A DNA stretch of 64,000 nt from Naegleria gruberi (taxonomy: Eukaryota). The stretch is taken from assembly GCA_000004985.1 (NCBI GenBank), contig GG738858.1; one strand, 5' to 3'. The notes below the pieces were generated by a model. That model had not been told where the DNA came from and searched no databases. It saw only the letters and a program-made list of their open reading frames with translations. Both the position numbers and the translations under genes were made by a program. This document shows positions 55,017-60,027 of the stretch, piece by piece. Numbering within the stretch: the first letter of the stretch is position 1; every line of letters begins with the position of its first letter.

Positions 55017-56489
55017 GAAATTCTAAGTTTGGACAAAAAGTGTTTCGTGCAAGTTACATGGTCATAAATTAAACCTAACTGGGATTCATACGGATTCCAT
55101 GGTATTGAAATTTCCTTAATGGGAAGTCTACAGTTTGTTTGTCAACTATGAGTACGGACTGCATGACAAGGTCAACTTACAATTGGTTCCTCAACACTTT
55201 TAAACAAATTCCATTTTATTAATCACAAAGCTTACAATCTAACATGTTTCAGTGCACAAAATAATCTCTGTCAGAAAAATAAGCTTACTGGTACAGTTAT
55301 ATCTGCATACCAAATCAATTAATTTGGACGGTTGATATAGAACACAATTATGAGAGAACCAATAGAAAGTATGAATATTTGCAAGACCAGATACACAAAT
55401 CCATTTAGAATTTTAAAAAGATATTTTCTGTTTATCCGACTACACACCAATAAATACGAAAATAATGAGCTTTATTCTACACGCGCAATATATGATGTAA
55501 ACAACTTTGACATCATACCCATTCCACTTGAACTGTTTCAAAGAAATTTCATGAAATGCATACAGTCTTTTAAGAATTCAAGTTTGACGCCTCCTGTCCC
55601 TTTACCAATTTTAACCTGTAATTTGCACAAACCTAAATGGTACTTTTTGAGATAATTAAAAATGTGTCCTTGGATACGGTTAGAAAATAGGAAACCCATG
55701 CCATTTCATTTTCATGAATACTATAAAGGTTTTTTATAATGGAGTTTTAAAAGTAATTCAAGTTTGGACAAAAAGTGTTTCGTGTAAGTTACATGATCAT
55801 AAATTAAACCTAACTGGGATTCACACGGATTCCATGGTATTGAAATTTCCTTACTGGGAAGTCTACTGTTTGTTTGTCAACTGAGTACGGACTGCATGAC
55901 AAGGTCAACTTACAATTGGTTCCTCAACAATTTTAAACAAATTCCATTTTATTAATCACATAGCTTACAATCTAACATGTTTCAGTGCACAAAATAATCT
56001 CTGTCAGAAAAAAAAGCTTACTGGTACAGTTATATCTGCATACCAAATCAATTAATTTGGACGGTTGATATAGAACACAATTATGAGAGAACCAATAGAA
56101 AGTATGAATATTTGCAAGACCAGATACACAAATCCATTTAGAATTTTAAAAAGATATTTTCTGTTTATCCGACTACACACCAATAAATACGAAAATAATG
56201 AGCTTTATTCTACACGTGCCATATATGATGTAAACAACTTTGACATCATACCCATTCCACTTGAACTGTTTCAAAGAAATTTCATGAAATGCATACAGTC
56301 TTTTAAGAATTCAAGTTTGACGCCTCCTGTCCCTTTACCAATTTTAACCTGTAATTTGCACAAACCTAAATGGTACTTTTTGAGATAATTAAAAATGTGT
56401 CCTTGGATACGGTTAGAAAATAGGAAACCCATGCCATTTCATTTTCATGAATACTATAAAGGTTTTTTATAATGGAGTTTTAAAAGTAA
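55017..56489. repeat. Tandem direct duplication: 2 copies of a ~733-bp unit plus an 11-nt partial third start
   Basis: Copy 1 ~55017-55748, copy 2 ~55749-56482; each holds an identical 101-aa ORF (55350..55655, 56083..56388); junction motif aattcaagttt. Confidence 0.9.
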
Positions 56490-56539: not shown

Positions 56540-57288
56540 ATGAAACAAGCAATCAAGCAACTCATTCGCACTTCCAAATCTTGTAAATTTTCTCCTCTTG
56601 CATCTACAAGTACATGCTTGTCAAGTACAGTGTCGATGACATCATCATCATTGAATAATATTTCTCGCAATTTTCATTCCGATCTTATTCATGAAGCCTT
56701 GCAAGAAAATTCCGAACAAGCACAAAAAACAACACACTATGCTACAACATCACTCGGAAAAACAACCAAAACACCAACAATATTCTATCAACGATCACCT
56801 GAGGAATGGGTTAAATTATTTAAATTGAGACAAGAATATGGAATTATTGGTCATATGGGATTTAGAATTGTAGATATTCCAAAAGGTGAGTTTGAATTAA
56901 AATTATATTGATGGAAGTTTGTTAAATATTGGTGGAAAAAGAGGGTGAATTGATTGCTGAAATGACAGCTTCTCAATTCCACATGGCTCCAAATCAATAC
57001 ATGCATGCTGCTTCGATTGTGTTTTTGGCTGATACTGCTGCTGGATTTGGATGCTATTGTAATTTACCAAGTACACATCACAAATTTACAACAATTGAAT
57101 TGAAATCCAATTTTATTTCATCATCAAAGGTTGGAAAACGTGTGGTTTGTAGAGCTCAATTAGTTCATGCTGGTAAATCAACTCAAGTGTGGGATGCTCT
57201 TGTTTTTGAAGATGAATTGGATAGTGGAAAATTGATGGCTACCTTTAGATGCACCCAAATTGTAATGGATTCTAGAGATAAACAATAA
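56540..57288 (+). CDS. Hotdog-fold acyl-CoA thioesterase (THEM2/PaaI-like), probably mitochondrial, 2 exons
   Basis: Exon 1 56540..56885 (...HMGFRIVDIPKG) joined across a 56-nt intron (56886..56941) to EGELIAEMTASQFHMAPNQYMHAASIVFLADTAAG...; S/T-rich presequence-like N-terminus. Confidence 0.65.
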
Positions 57289-57378
57289 CAGAGCAGCTCA
57301 GTTTGAAAATAAATCAATAGAAACCAGATTATTGAAACAGGTAATCTAATTCAATAGTAAGATTTTAAGGAAGTGCAT

Positions 57379-57496
57379 GGCTACGGCCATATCACGATGA
57401 AAGCACCTCATCCCGTCCGATTTGAGAAGTTAAGCATCGTCGAGCCACATCAGTACTGAGGTTGGAGACAACTTGGGAACCTGTGGTGCTGTAGTC
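57379..57496 (+). rRNA. 5S ribosomal RNA
   Basis: GGCTACGGCCATATCACGATGAAAGCACC...CCCGTCCGAT...AGTTAAGC...GGTTGGAGACAAC...GTGCTGTAGTC; 5'/3' helix I complementarity; ~118 nt; followed by TTTTT. Confidence 0.9.
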
Positions 57497-57501
57497 TTTT
57501 T
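57497..57501 (+). terminator. Pol III T-run terminator of the 5S gene
   Basis: TTTTT immediately after the 5S 3' end. Confidence 0.7.
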
Positions 57502-57528
57502 ACTTCATAGTCAATAGTCAACCAATAA

Positions 57529-58818
57529 ATGATGTGCAAGGTTTTTTACAAAATAAAAAAAATGTCTTTACAACCTCTCAAAGAAACCATCACAATAGGA
57601 CTTATAGGGGATTATTCTTATTTTGCTGAACGATTTTTCAAGCAATTTAAACTAATTTCAAAATCCAGAACCATCAATTTCGATCACATTGTTTCCGATA
57701 CGAGTAAATTAATTCAATTTGTGAGCATTGCACCTTTTCAATGCTCCATCACAAATATGAACAAGGCTTTGGTAGTCTCGGATTATGCTATTATAATTGT
57801 AGGAACTAATGTTGATGAGGATATCATGAAAAAACGATTAGTAGATTGTATTCGAATGGTGAATTATTCGTTAATGGATAGAATTTTATTGGTGGTGGAT
57901 GATTATAGGAATGGTAAATATGATGATGATAGAGGTTACGATTGGATTAGAGAAGTGATTAGAAAGGAATCAATGGTTGAATTTACCTATGATATATTAT
58001 ATTGGAATTCATTTGACAAATTAAATGATTGGATCAAGTCGTTGCCTGTTAAAAAGGATATTGAACGATTGGCTTCTCAACCTGTAAGAGTGCGAATGTT
58101 GCAAACTGTTTATGCTTATGGTAGAAAGTATAGGCAGTTTAGTTATTGTCTTTTTAAAGTATTAAGTGGAATAGTTCATCAAGGTCAGGACATTTGTTTT
58201 AATACCAACAATGGAGAAAAAAAATTTAAAGTGAATGGCCACTATAATTACTCAGCTCTATCTAATAATATTGAAAGGCCAAAAGTATTTCTACCAGGTC
58301 AAATATTCTGTGTTGCCAATTGTTTAATGGAATTGATTCCTGAAGATAGTTGTACGGAGTATAAACACTTTATTAGTGGAAATTACTACTCTGAAATGAC
58401 CAAGAAAATTAAGGTAGACTCTTTTTGGATTGAATATACTCATTTCGGCTCAAACAATATCAGTAAGGAAATATTTGTAAATAGAATATGTTTGATTTTT
58501 TGCAACTCGAAACTATGTGGACGAATAGAACGAATAAAAAATTCTGAAGGAAAGGGAATGAGAATTGAGATTAAGGTGTTTGACAGGGTTCAATCAGGGC
58601 ACGACAGGTTATTTTCTCAACATGGCTTCCTAACAACATTCGAAAAGAGTTTCCAATTTGGAAGGGTTTTACTAGGTAATAGAAAGGAAATGATTGGCTT
58701 TGGAAAAGTAATATCAGTAATTTATCAAGACATGGACACGAATACCTTGCTTATTGAACATCCCATAAGCTTATTTTCAAAAATTCCAAAGCACTTAAAA
58801 GATATTCATATTGTGTAA
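57529..58818 (+). CDS. Hypothetical protein, possibly a degenerate translational-GTPase (EF-Tu/eIF2-gamma-like) fold lacking canonical GTP-binding motifs
   Basis: 429-aa ORF; GLIGDYSYFAERF at the P-loop position, IIIVGTNVDED at the NKxD position, then beta-barrel-like segments (GQIFCVANCL, GRIERIKNSEGKGMRIEIKVFD); tentative. Confidence 0.45.
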   Translation: MMCKVFYKIKKMSLQPLKETITIGLIGDYSYFAERFFKQFKLISKSRTINFDHIVSDTSKLIQFVSIAPFQCSITNMNKALVVSDYAIIIVGTNVDEDIMKKRLVDCIRMVNYSLMDRILLVVDDYRNGKYDDDRGYDWIREVIRKESMVEFTYDILYWNSFDKLNDWIKSLPVKKDIERLASQPVRVRMLQTVYAYGRKYRQFSYCLFKVLSGIVHQGQDICFNTNNGEKKFKVNGHYNYSALSNNIERPKVFLPGQIFCVANCLMELIPEDSCTEYKHFISGNYYSEMTKKIKVDSFWIEYTHFGSNNISKEIFVNRICLIFCNSKLCGRIERIKNSEGKGMRIEIKVFDRVQSGHDRLFSQHGFLTTFEKSFQFGRVLLGNRKEMIGFGKVISVIYQDMDTNTLLIEHPISLFSKIPKHLKDIHIV

Positions 58819-58854
58819 TGTTATTATCTAAGAGTTAATTAAGCCAAAAGGATT

Positions 58855-58937
58855 TGCCAGCGGTGGGGTTCGAACCCACGAACCCATTCGGGATAAGATC
58901 TTAAGTCTTACGCATTTGACCACTCTGCTACGCGGGC
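58855..58937 (-). tRNA. tRNA-Leu (anticodon UAA), type II with long variable arm
   Basis: Minus strand reads GCCCGCGTAGCAGAGTGGTCAAATGCGTAAGACTTAAGATCTTATCCCGAATGGGTTCGTGGGTTCGAACCCCACCGCTGGCA: D-arm, anticodon loop CTTAAGA, variable stem-loop CCCGAATGGG, T-arm GTGGGTTCGAACCCCAC; one C-T mismatch in the acceptor stem. Confidence 0.85.
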
Positions 58938-59013
58938 TGGTGATAACGAATAATTTTTCTATTTCAAACACACACGATCTAGGATAAAGGTTTTGATTTT
59001 CATAATTATCCCT

Positions 59014-60027
59014 TTAATAATTTACAAAAGTTGCTTTTCTCTTTGTCTTTGGTGGAGGTTTAACACTAAATGACGAAACTGCATTCTTTCCATATTGATA
59101 AGTCGCATATTCCTCTAGCTCATTACTATCCCACAATTCATCGTTATCGTCATCATGCTCCTCTTTTTGACAACCTACAATCTGCCCCACTTTTAAGAAT
59201 AATTGTCTATAGATAGTATCCAATAATTCAAAATGATGAAACGACTCATCGATTCCATCATATCCAACTGGCTCATAACCAATATCAAATACACTCTGCA
59301 TGTTACTCACAATATACTTTGAATTGTTCTTGTAGAAATTACTCCCAATTGCATGATCATTTCTATTCATATGGTATTTTAAATTGTTGATTAGCACATA
59401 ACCTTTATCCGTTAGTGAAAATTTAAGAACTACAGGAAATCCACAATAGGAAAAGATAATGCATTCAGTTTCTTTCAGATCTTGTGAGAGTAAATAAACC
59501 CAACAGTGGGCATTAATTATTTTGAATTCAATGTCACATATATCCATAAATTTGACACTTTCAAAATCTTGCAATAAATATTTCATTTCATTTGCCTCAT
59601 TGACTTTCCTTACCATCTCCTTCAAGTATTTCACATTATTCTTCTTTCTACTATTAAAAGAAGCGAATATGTCCCCAATTTTAGAATATTTTCCTCGTTC
59701 ACCAGGTGTTTTATAAACCTTGATGAGTAAGTTCAATAATTCAACATGACTTTTCAAATTATTCACAAGAGAAGGTCCTCTAATGTTGCTCCTGTCAGTG
59801 CTAGTATTAAACTCAAAGCCTAAACTCAACAAAATTCTCAGCCTTTCCTTCGCATCATTGTTTAATTGGAAGAAATGATGTAAATAGTCCCTTGCAAAAT
59901 TTTCATCACGACAAATGGTAAACCAGTGTTTGTTTACGAGTTGGATGCTGGCTAGTTGATATGGGCAGAGGTAGAGAAACAGCATTTGTAGCAAATCGTC
60001 ATAGAGTGGATGGCGGAGTAATGACAT
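59014..60027 (-). CDS. F-box-like protein
   Basis: N-terminal LYDDLLQMLFLYLCPYQLASIQLVNKHWFTICRD fits the F-box consensus; 337 aa. Confidence 0.45.
   Translation of the reverse strand: MSLLRHPLYDDLLQMLFLYLCPYQLASIQLVNKHWFTICRDENFARDYLHHFFQLNNDAKERLRILLSLGFEFNTSTDRSNIRGPSLVNNLKSHVELLNLLIKVYKTPGERGKYSKIGDIFASFNSRKKNNVKYLKEMVRKVNEANEMKYLLQDFESVKFMDICDIEFKIINAHCWVYLLSQDLKETECIIFSYCGFPVVLKFSLTDKGYVLINNLKYHMNRNDHAIGSNFYKNNSKYIVSNMQSVFDIGYEPVGYDGIDESFHHFELLDTIYRQLFLKVGQIVGCQKEEHDDDNDELWDSNELEEYATYQYGKNAVSSFSVKPPPKTKRKATFVNY

What the first reader, a model, noticed from the sequence alone, without database searches (positions are those of the whole stretch)
57379..58937. Dispersed Pol III gene pair (5S rRNA and tRNA-Leu UAA) bracketing a protein-coding gene
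A single chromosomal 5S rRNA gene with a T-run terminator ends 32 bp before the start codon of a protein-coding gene (57529), so the 5S body lies in that gene's promoter region. A type-II tRNA-Leu(UAA) lies on the opposite strand 37 bp past the same gene's stop and ~75 bp past the stop of the convergent F-box gene. The 5S gene is solo rather than in a 5S array or linked to the large rDNA unit, which is informative about rDNA organisation in this lineage. The tight interleaving of Pol III and Pol II units may mean the tDNA and 5S act as boundary or terminator elements. The tandem repeat at 55017-56489 is ~900 bp upstream.
Basis: partly seen in the sequence, partly recalled or inferred. Interest (0 to 1): 0.5.

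Follow-up and report, generated by a model that had tools for sequence, protein, structure and literature searches.

The report
Ordinary 5S and tRNA-Leu genes, Naegleria
The window is Naegleria gruberi chromosomal DNA, and the finding is one intact 5S rRNA gene and one intact tRNA-Leu gene squeezed between tightly packed protein genes, which is the normal and already documented arrangement in this amoeba.

Summary
Rfam finds a full-length 5S rRNA gene at 57379-57497 (+) scoring 106 bits against a threshold of 38. Rfam and ARAGORN find a tRNA-Leu(UAA) at 58855-58937 (-). Both are followed by T-runs, and they are the only RNA genes in the 64 kb.

The window is Naegleria gruberi nuclear DNA. In this organism the 18S/5.8S/28S genes sit on an extrachromosomal plasmid. 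A 2012 paper lists 279 chromosomal 5S copies. I re-analysed its table: the copies lie on 117 scaffolds with a median spacing of 34 kb. A solo 5S gene is therefore the known norm here.

The 5S copy is 119/119 identical to one in unrelated flanks on an environmental Naegleria-like contig, so it is the canonical sequence and not a pseudogene.

The closeness to protein genes fits genome compaction. Convergent genes in this window are a median of 54 nt apart without any Pol III gene between them. Nothing supports a boundary or terminator role.

A paralog indicates the flanked gene starts at 57562, not 57529. The tRNA has one C4:U69 acceptor-stem mismatch.

One small new point: both RNA genes carry AATAGNAA at -26 to -19, a possible shared TATA-like element.

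Low interest; already known.

The parts
57379..57497 (+). 5S rRNA gene, full length (119 nt)
   Evidence: RF00001 scores 106.3 bits against a gathering score of 38, covering model positions 1-120. The fold is the canonical three-helix junction. It is 119/119 identical to the 5S on environmental contig L001.
57497..57501 (+). T5 run, Pol III terminator of the 5S gene
   Evidence: Read directly from the sequence. The L001 copy has a T4 run at the same place.
57428..57435 (+). 5S internal promoter Box A (AGTTAAGC, +50 to +57)
   Evidence: Matches the Box A consensus N(G/C)(C/T)(C/T)AANC quoted in PMC3369914.
57458..57475 (+). 5S Box C-equivalent region (GAGGTTGGAGACAACTTG, +80 to +97)
   Evidence: By position this is equivalent to Box C. 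By my reading it has two departures from the consensus NNG(G/A)TGGGNG(T/A)CCN(C/T)NNG, so there is no exact match. PMC3369914 reports an internal control region in N. gruberi 5S genes.
57353..57360 (+). AATAGTAA at -26 to -19 of the 5S gene; candidate TATA-like upstream element
   Evidence: The same AATAGNAA motif sits in the same register upstream of the tRNA gene. The motif has only 34 sites on both strands of the 64 kb window. PMC3369914 reports a TATA box upstream of N. gruberi 5S genes. Its function here is inferred.
58855..58937 (-). tRNA-Leu(UAA) gene, type II (long variable arm), no intron, no encoded CCA
   Evidence: RF00005 scores 57.8 bits. ARAGORN calls Leu with anticodon taa. The A box is at 58920-58930 and the B box at 58866-58876. 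Rfam flags one acceptor-stem pair as non-standard; by my reading this is C4:U69.
58846..58849 (-). T4 run, Pol III terminator of the tRNA gene (6-9 nt past the discriminator base)
   Evidence: The 3' trailer reads AATCCTTTTGG.
58956..58963 (-). AATAGAAA at -26 to -19 of the tRNA gene; candidate TATA-like upstream element
   Evidence: One search gives the position and one search gives the leader sequence. Its function is inferred.
57562..58818 (+). Flanked protein-coding gene (418 aa from the ATG at 57562; the ORF opens at 57529). Lineage-restricted, possibly a translational-GTPase-like pseudo-GTPase.
   Evidence: It is 100% identical to an NCBI 'predicted protein [Naegleria gruberi]' that is annotated from M77 only. 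Paralog P0002 begins at the position of M12. There is no Pfam or PDB sequence hit. A low-confidence structure model matches only EF-Tu, aIF2-gamma, Ski7 and Hbs1 type proteins.
59014..60027 (-). F-box protein gene, same strand as the tRNA, with its stop codon 76 nt upstream of the tRNA 5' end
   Evidence: ORF. PF00646 F-box scores 20.8 bits against a cut-off of 20.5.
56540..57288 (+). Upstream 4HBT thioesterase gene (exons 56540-56885 and 56942-57288, with a 56-nt GT..AG intron); its stop codon is 90 nt before the 5S gene
   Evidence: ORFs. PF03061 matches at E 8e-13. The intron was read from the sequence.

Best explanation
These are two ordinary, independently transcribed RNA polymerase III genes in the compact nuclear genome of Naegleria gruberi.

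The 5S gene is one of roughly 260-280 dispersed chromosomal copies. Together these supply 5S rRNA to ribosomes whose other rRNAs come from the roughly 4000-copy extrachromosomal rDNA plasmid. It is inferred to be driven by an internal control region (Box A at +50, a Box C-like region at +80 to +97), probably helped by a TATA-like element at -26 to -19. It ends at a T5 run.

The tRNA-Leu(UAA) gene is inferred to be driven by internal A and B boxes, with the same upstream AATAGNAA element, and ends at a T4 run.

Their closeness to protein genes is a by-product of very short intergenic spacers, not a sign of a special regulatory role.

Shown here: identity and integrity of both genes, the organism, and the dispersed genome-wide arrangement. 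Inferred: transcription and the role of the promoter elements.
For: Covariance-model scores are far above threshold and both matches are full length. ARAGORN agrees on the tRNA. The 5S fold is canonical. The internal promoter boxes and T-runs are present.

The organism is identified by a 100% protein match to N. gruberi.

PMC3369914 Table S1 lists 279 5S copies. My analysis places them on 117 scaffolds, with a median same-scaffold spacing of 33.9 kb and only 22 of 162 spacings under 3 kb. The 18S/5.8S/28S genes are on the plasmid.

The 5S copy is 119/119 identical to one in unrelated flanks on a Naegleria-like environmental contig.

The window is compact. The median convergent stop-to-stop gap is 53.5 nt, and six of ten gaps are 64 nt or less with no Pol III gene.

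AATAGNAA sits at -26 to -19 of both genes, against 34 sites in 128,000 strand positions.
Against: There is no expression data for this copy.

The tRNA has a C4:U69 mismatch in the acceptor stem, so its function is not certain.

The Box C region departs at two positions from the consensus used in the literature.

PMC3369914 found no TFIIIA in N. gruberi, so how the internal control region is read there is unclear.

The only two Pol III genes in 64 kb lie 1.36 kb apart, roughly a 5% chance under uniform placement. Some clustering of Pol III genes is therefore not excluded.
Confidence: 0.88

Rival explanations
1. The 5S and tRNA genes, bound by TFIIIC and TFIIIB, also serve as insulators or roadblock terminators. 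They would separate the thioesterase gene from the downstream gene, and the two convergent genes from each other.
For: The tRNA lies exactly between two convergent stop codons. The 5S lies between tandem genes, 90 nt after one stop and 64 nt before the next start. tRNA genes and TFIIIC sites act as barriers in yeasts and animals (PMC2040200 and the PMC12409998 review). Both genes have intact internal boxes.
Against: There is no direct evidence. Six of ten convergent pairs in the window are 1-64 nt apart with no Pol III gene, so such an element is not generally needed. With about 280 5S genes and many tRNA genes in a 41 Mb genome with short spacers, every one must lie next to Pol II genes. A related locus lacks the 5S next to the orthologous gene.
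Confidence: 0.07
2. The 5S copy is a dead, dispersed pseudogene or a 5S-derived retroposed (SINE-like) element and not a working gene.
For: The 5S copies are dispersed in N. gruberi. Fifteen of the 279 listed entries are shorter than 110 nt, so decayed copies do exist.
Against: This copy is full length at 106 bits and has a canonical fold. It has an intact Box A and a T5 terminator. It is 100% identical to a copy at an unrelated locus. There is no poly-A tail. The longest direct repeat between the flanks is no more than chance, being reached in 492 of 2000 shuffles.
Confidence: 0.03
3. The tRNA-Leu(UAA) copy is a weakly functional or non-functional variant because of its C4:U69 acceptor-stem mismatch.
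For: Rfam marks one acceptor-stem pair as a non-standard, negatively scoring pair. A single-sequence fold does not recover the full cloverleaf (z = -0.8).
Against: The score of 57.8 bits is double the threshold. The A and B boxes are perfect, and G37, discriminator A73 and the T4 terminator are all present. Single acceptor-stem mismatches occur in working tRNAs (own knowledge).
Confidence: 0.1

Closest known systems
Dispersed chromosomal 5S rRNA genes of Naegleria gruberi (279 putative copies; PMC3369914, Table S1)
   Same: Same organism and about the same gene length (most table entries are 117 nt; 119 nt here by Rfam). As in that paper, there is a T-run terminator, an internal control region and an upstream TATA-like element, and no linkage to the 18S/5.8S/28S unit. 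This copy is almost certainly one of the listed entries.
   Different: Nothing substantive. I could not map the window to a specific table row. The paper's Table 1 summarises the arrangement as 'tandem', but its own coordinates show dispersal with a median spacing of 34 kb.
Extrachromosomal rDNA plasmid (CERE) of Naegleria (PMC5805870 and related announcements)
   Same: It is the other half of the same rRNA gene organisation. It explains why the 5S gene cannot be linked to the large rRNA genes.
   Different: The plasmid carries 18S, 5.8S and 28S only. These papers state that no rRNA genes are in nuclear DNA, a statement that overlooks the chromosomal 5S genes such as this one.
Other protist 5S arrangements: Entamoeba tRNA/5S tandem arrays (PMC2652664) and Diplonema SL RNA-5S-U2 tandem repeats (PMC10161547)
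   Same: In these too, 5S is unlinked from the large rDNA unit and is found near other small-RNA genes.
   Different: Those are head-to-tail repeat units. Here the 5S and tRNA are single copies on opposite strands, 1.36 kb apart, with a protein gene between them.
tRNA-gene / TFIIIC chromatin barriers and insulators (for example fission yeast centromere 1, PMC2040200)
   Same: An intact B-box-containing Pol III gene is positioned between Pol II units.
   Different: Barrier activity is defined experimentally, at heterochromatin or domain borders. Nothing of that kind is known or shown for this locus.

Membership tests
5S rRNA (Rfam RF00001) | Covariance-model score at or above the gathering threshold over the full model | tested here: met
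   106.3 bits against 38, positions 1-120 of 120.
5S rRNA (Rfam RF00001) | Three-helix-junction secondary structure with a loop E region (AGUA / GAA strands) | tested here: met
   The minimum-free-energy structure is the canonical Y shape, z = -2.7. AGUAC and GGGAAC are present at the expected places.
Eukaryotic type 1 Pol III gene | Internal control region (Box A, intermediate element, Box C) | tested here: inconclusive
   Box A matches exactly at +50. The Box C region has two departures from the published consensus, and the intermediate element is too loosely defined to test.
Eukaryotic type 1 Pol III gene | Oligo-T terminator directly after the gene | tested here: met
   TTTTT at 57497-57501.
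Eukaryotic type 1 Pol III gene | Transcription by Pol III and incorporation into ribosomes | not testable with these tools
   No expression data are available. Identity to a second copy in unrelated flanks argues only indirectly for function.
tRNA-Leu, type II (Rfam RF00005) | Cloverleaf covariance-model score above threshold, long variable arm, Leu anticodon | tested here: met
   57.8 bits against 29. ARAGORN calls Leu(taa). The variable arm is CCCGAAUGGG.
tRNA-Leu, type II (Rfam RF00005) | Fully paired acceptor stem | tested here: not met
   Rfam flags one acceptor-stem pair as non-standard; by my reading this is C4:U69. The six other pairs are standard. This does not exclude function.
Type 2 Pol III gene | A box, B box and downstream T-run | tested here: met
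   TAGCAGAGTGG at +8, GGTTCGAACCC at +62, and TTTT 6-9 nt past the 3' end.
5S tandem array or 5S linked to the 18S-28S unit | Several head-to-tail 5S units, or 5S adjacent to large rRNA genes | tested here: not met
   One 5S and no other rRNA in 64 kb, even at relaxed E-values. Genome-wide spacing has a median of 34 kb.
5S-derived retroposon / pseudogene | Truncation or decay, poly-A or LINE-like tail, target-site duplication | tested here: not met
   The copy is full length and identical to another copy. There is no A-tail. The flank repeat is no more than chance, reached in 492 of 2000 shuffles.
Pol III-gene insulator / barrier element | TFIIIC/TFIIIB occupancy together with demonstrated blocking of Pol II read-through or of chromatin spreading | not testable with these tools
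   Only the sequence prerequisites (intact boxes) can be seen. The window statistics give no need for such a role.

The most novel reading that the evidence does not exclude
In Naegleria's compact genome the dispersed Pol III genes might be more than passengers. Two untested possibilities remain. First, 5S and tRNA genes may share a common TATA-like upstream element (AATAGNAA at -26 to -19) that positions TFIIIB in a system where no TFIIIA has been found. Second, they may tend to co-localise and act as roadblocks that keep closely packed Pol II units apart. A related open question is how roughly 260 scattered 5S copies stay identical without arrays. That would imply frequent gene conversion between dispersed copies, or turnover of copies.
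Probability: 0.1. Interest if true: 0.45.

Novelty: already known. Interest (0 to 1): 0.1.

Why it matters
It matters little beyond annotation. The locus is a clean example showing that Naegleria does carry rRNA genes (5S) on its chromosomes. [quoted passage not shown]

It also shows that the 2012 summary of the N. gruberi 5S genes as 'tandem' does not match that paper's own coordinates.

If the shared upstream AATAGNAA element held up across all copies, it would give a simple handle on Pol III promoter architecture in a deep-branching eukaryote where TFIIIA has not been found. The boundary-element idea would be interesting only with functional data.

Tried and rejected
1. Exact-sequence look-ups of the window's proteins and of the two N. 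gruberi database proteins found no contigs. I therefore could not fetch other N. gruberi 5S loci or the paralog's neighbourhood.

2. The Naegleria genome paper (Cell 2010) and Clark & Cross 1987 are not held in the library.

3. Mobile-element origin of the 5S copy. By eye, TCAATAGT flanks the gene at 57351-57358 and 57511-57518. But a shared 8-mer between the 80-nt flanks occurs in 25% of shuffles, and the second copy (L001) shows nothing comparable. Rejected.

4. Positional conservation of 5S. The gene next to the 5S on L001/L002 has a 58%-identical ortholog on L004/L005 with no 5S nearby. The upstream neighbour also differs, so this is only weak evidence for turnover.

5. Sequence-based annotation of the flanked protein failed against Pfam and PDB. 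An exhaustive profile search found only one further distant relative, itself unannotated. The structure model has low confidence (pLDDT 42.8), so the translational-GTPase resemblance is only a lead.

6. The bacterial-type promoter and terminator scan is uninformative for a eukaryote.

Full report
**What is there.** Rfam covariance models find exactly two RNA genes in the 64 kb window, and a relaxed E-value scan adds none.

The first is a 5S rRNA gene at 57379-57497 (+). It scores 106.3 bits against a gathering score of 38 and covers model positions 1-120 of 120. Folded alone, it gives the canonical three-helix junction (-40.9 kcal/mol, z = -2.7). It contains AGTTAAGC at +50, an exact match to the Box A consensus quoted in PMC3369914. 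It has a Box C-equivalent stretch at +80 to +97 with two departures from that consensus, and the loop E strands AGUAC and GGGAAC. A TTTTT run at 57497-57501 follows directly.

The second is a tRNA at 58855-58937 (-), scoring 57.8 bits against 29. ARAGORN independently calls it tRNA-Leu with anticodon UAA. It has a long variable arm, an A box TAGCAGAGTGG at +8 and a B box GGTTCGAACCC at +62. Discriminator A73 is present, no CCA is encoded, and a TTTT run lies 6-9 nt into the trailer. Its one blemish is a non-standard pair in the acceptor stem flagged by Rfam, which I read as C4:U69.

**Neighbours.**
- Upstream is a 4HBT thioesterase gene (PF03061, E 8e-13). Its exons are 56540-56885 and 56942-57288, joined across a 56-nt GT..AG intron. 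Its stop codon is 90 nt before the 5S gene.
- Downstream is the ORF 57529-58818. A paralog (P0002, 59-63% identical) begins at the residue aligned with M12 of this ORF, and residues 12-76 are conserved between the two. The likely start is therefore the ATG at 57562, 64 nt after the 5S gene. It is not 57529, and it is not the NCBI model's M77.
- The tRNA lies 36 nt past this gene's stop codon. It is 76 nt downstream of, and on the same strand as, an F-box gene at 59014-60027 (PF00646, 20.8 bits against a cut-off of 20.5).
- The tandem duplication at 55017-56489 is real: two copies of about 735 bp, aligned at 99% mean column identity.

**Which organism, and what is already known.** The flanked ORF is 100% identical to an NCBI 'predicted protein [Naegleria gruberi]' on a 782 kb contig. 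The 33% G+C content and dense, mostly intron-poor genes fit this.

In Naegleria the 18S, 5.8S and 28S genes are carried on 3000-5000 copies of a 14 kb extrachromosomal circle.

A 2012 comparative study (PMC3369914) searched the N. gruberi assembly and listed 279 putative 5S genes. It reported that they are not located with the rDNA unit, and that they have an internal control region, an upstream TATA box and T-run terminators. It found no TFIIIA in N. gruberi.

I transcribed its Table S1 and analysed it:
- The 279 entries lie on 117 scaffolds; 15 of them are shorter than 110 nt.
- The 162 same-scaffold spacings have a median of 33.9 kb.
- Only 22 spacings are under 3 kb, and the smallest is 462 bp.

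These are dispersed genes with a few loose clusters, not head-to-tail arrays, even though that paper's Table 1 ticks 'tandem'. A solo 5S gene between protein genes is thus the documented norm in this species. The N. fowleri genome paper also reports 5S rRNAs on the nuclear genome.

**Is this copy functional?** A metagenome scan with a 37-nt stretch of the gene found one environmental contig (L001; a longer version is L002). It carries a 5S gene that is 119/119 identical to the window copy, in completely unrelated flanks. There it sits 166 nt from the start of a divergent ABHD11-like hydrolase gene. That gene's nearest named relatives are from Willaertia and Naegleria lovaniensis.

Identity across unrelated loci, full length, an intact Box A and a terminator all argue that the window copy is the canonical sequence and not a decayed pseudogene. 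There is no poly-A tail. The longest direct repeat between the flanks is matched in 492 of 2000 shuffles, so nothing suggests a retroposed or transposed copy. A 58%-identical ortholog locus of the hydrolase gene (L004/L005) has no 5S. This hints at turnover of copies, but synteny there is not conserved either.

**How it most likely works.** Both genes are standard Pol III units. Their proximity to Pol II genes follows from compaction. Among ATG-ORFs of at least 150 aa in the window, the median gaps are as follows:

| Orientation of neighbours | Median gap | n |
|---|---|---|
| Convergent, stop to stop | 53.5 nt | 10 |
| Divergent, ATG to ATG | 308 nt | 7 |
| Tandem, stop to ATG | 450 nt | 8 |

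Six of the ten convergent gaps are 1-64 nt with no Pol III gene. The tRNA-bearing gap is 195 nt, which is roughly the 83-nt tRNA plus a normal spacer. The 5S-bearing tandem gap is 273 nt, below the tandem median.

With some 280 5S genes plus the tRNA genes in a 41 Mb genome (size), every Pol III gene must lie within tens to hundreds of bases of a Pol II gene. The boundary or terminator idea borrows a real phenomenon from yeasts and animals. But nothing in the sequence supports it here, and most tightly packed gene pairs in the window manage without such an element. I give it about 7%.

**Small points that go beyond the finding.**
- Both Pol III genes carry AATAGNAA at exactly -26 to -19 (57353-57360 on + and 58956-58963 on -). 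The motif has 34 sites in 128,000 strand positions.
- The L001 copy has TTATAGAA about 4 nt closer to the gene.
- This fits a shared TATA-like element that positions TFIIIB, in line with the TATA box claimed in PMC3369914, but three sequences cannot establish it.
- The only two Pol III genes in 64 kb are 1.36 kb apart, about a 5% chance under uniform placement. That is a hint of clustering which only a genome-wide count can test.

**The flanked protein.** It has no Pfam or PDB sequence match. In an exhaustive profile search it has only three relatives: the truncated NCBI model of itself, the paralog, and one unannotated distant protein, P0032.

An AlphaFold model built from a two-sequence alignment has low confidence (pLDDT 42.8). 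Even so, all 50 listed Foldseek PDB hits (E about 1e-9 to 6e-8, TM about 0.3) are translational GTPases or complexes containing them, such as EF-Tu, aIF2-gamma, SelB, Hbs1, Ski7 and eRF3. By my reading, the segment ITNMNKALVVSDYAIIIV resembles the switch II region of EF-Tu/EF-1-alpha, while the P-loop, DxxG and NKxD motifs appear absent. It may be a lineage-specific pseudo-GTPase. This is a lead only and is unrelated to the Pol III question.

**Verdict.** This is an already known arrangement in N. gruberi and is of low interest.

Noticed in passing
window 57562-58818 (+): The gene between the 5S and the tRNA belongs to a tiny lineage-restricted family: itself, one N. gruberi paralog and one distant unannotated protein, P0032. 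A low-confidence AlphaFold model (pLDDT 42.8) matches only translational GTPases such as EF-Tu, aIF2-gamma, Ski7, Hbs1 and eRF3 (Foldseek E about 1e-9, TM about 0.3). By eye the GTP-binding motifs are degenerate, so it may be a pseudo-GTPase. The NCBI gene model (353 aa, starting at M77) appears truncated at the N-terminus; the paralog supports a start at 57562.
   Followed up: partly
window 57353-57360 (+) and 58956-58963 (-): AATAGNAA sits at exactly -26 to -19 upstream of both the 5S and the tRNA-Leu gene. The motif has only 34 sites in the window on both strands. The identical 5S on L001 has TTATAGAA about 4 nt closer to the gene. This may be a TATA-like upstream element shared by Pol III genes.
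   Followed up: partly
window 55017-56489: A tandem duplication of about 735 bp in two copies (99% mean column identity) lies in the divergent spacer between the ferric reductase gene and the thioesterase gene. Each copy carries an identical 101-aa ORF (55350-55655 and 56083-56388). The two nucleotide differences inside the ORF are both synonymous. No Rfam match.
   Followed up: partly
PMC3369914 Table 1 versus Table S1; PMC5805870: The 2012 paper summarises N. gruberi 5S genes as tandemly arranged, but its own coordinates show 279 entries on 117 scaffolds with a median spacing of 34 kb. [quoted passage not shown]
   Followed up: yes
L001 539-657 (-) / L002 1375-1493 (-): Environmental Naegleria-like contigs carry a 5S gene 119/119 identical to the window copy. 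It sits in unrelated flanks, 166 nt from the start of a divergent ABHD11-like gene. A 58%-identical ortholog locus (L004, L005) has no 5S.
   Followed up: partly
window 58855-58937 (-): The tRNA-Leu(UAA) has a C4:U69 mismatch in its acceptor stem. Everything else about it is canonical.
   Followed up: no
whole window, e.g. 17513/17515, 47968/47975, 9411/9426: Convergent genes often have stop codons only 1-64 nt apart (six of ten pairs). Their 3' untranslated regions must therefore overlap or be extremely short.
   Followed up: partly
window 56886-56941: The thioesterase gene upstream of the 5S has a 56-nt GT..AG intron joining ORFs 56540-56885 and 56942-57288.
   Followed up: partly
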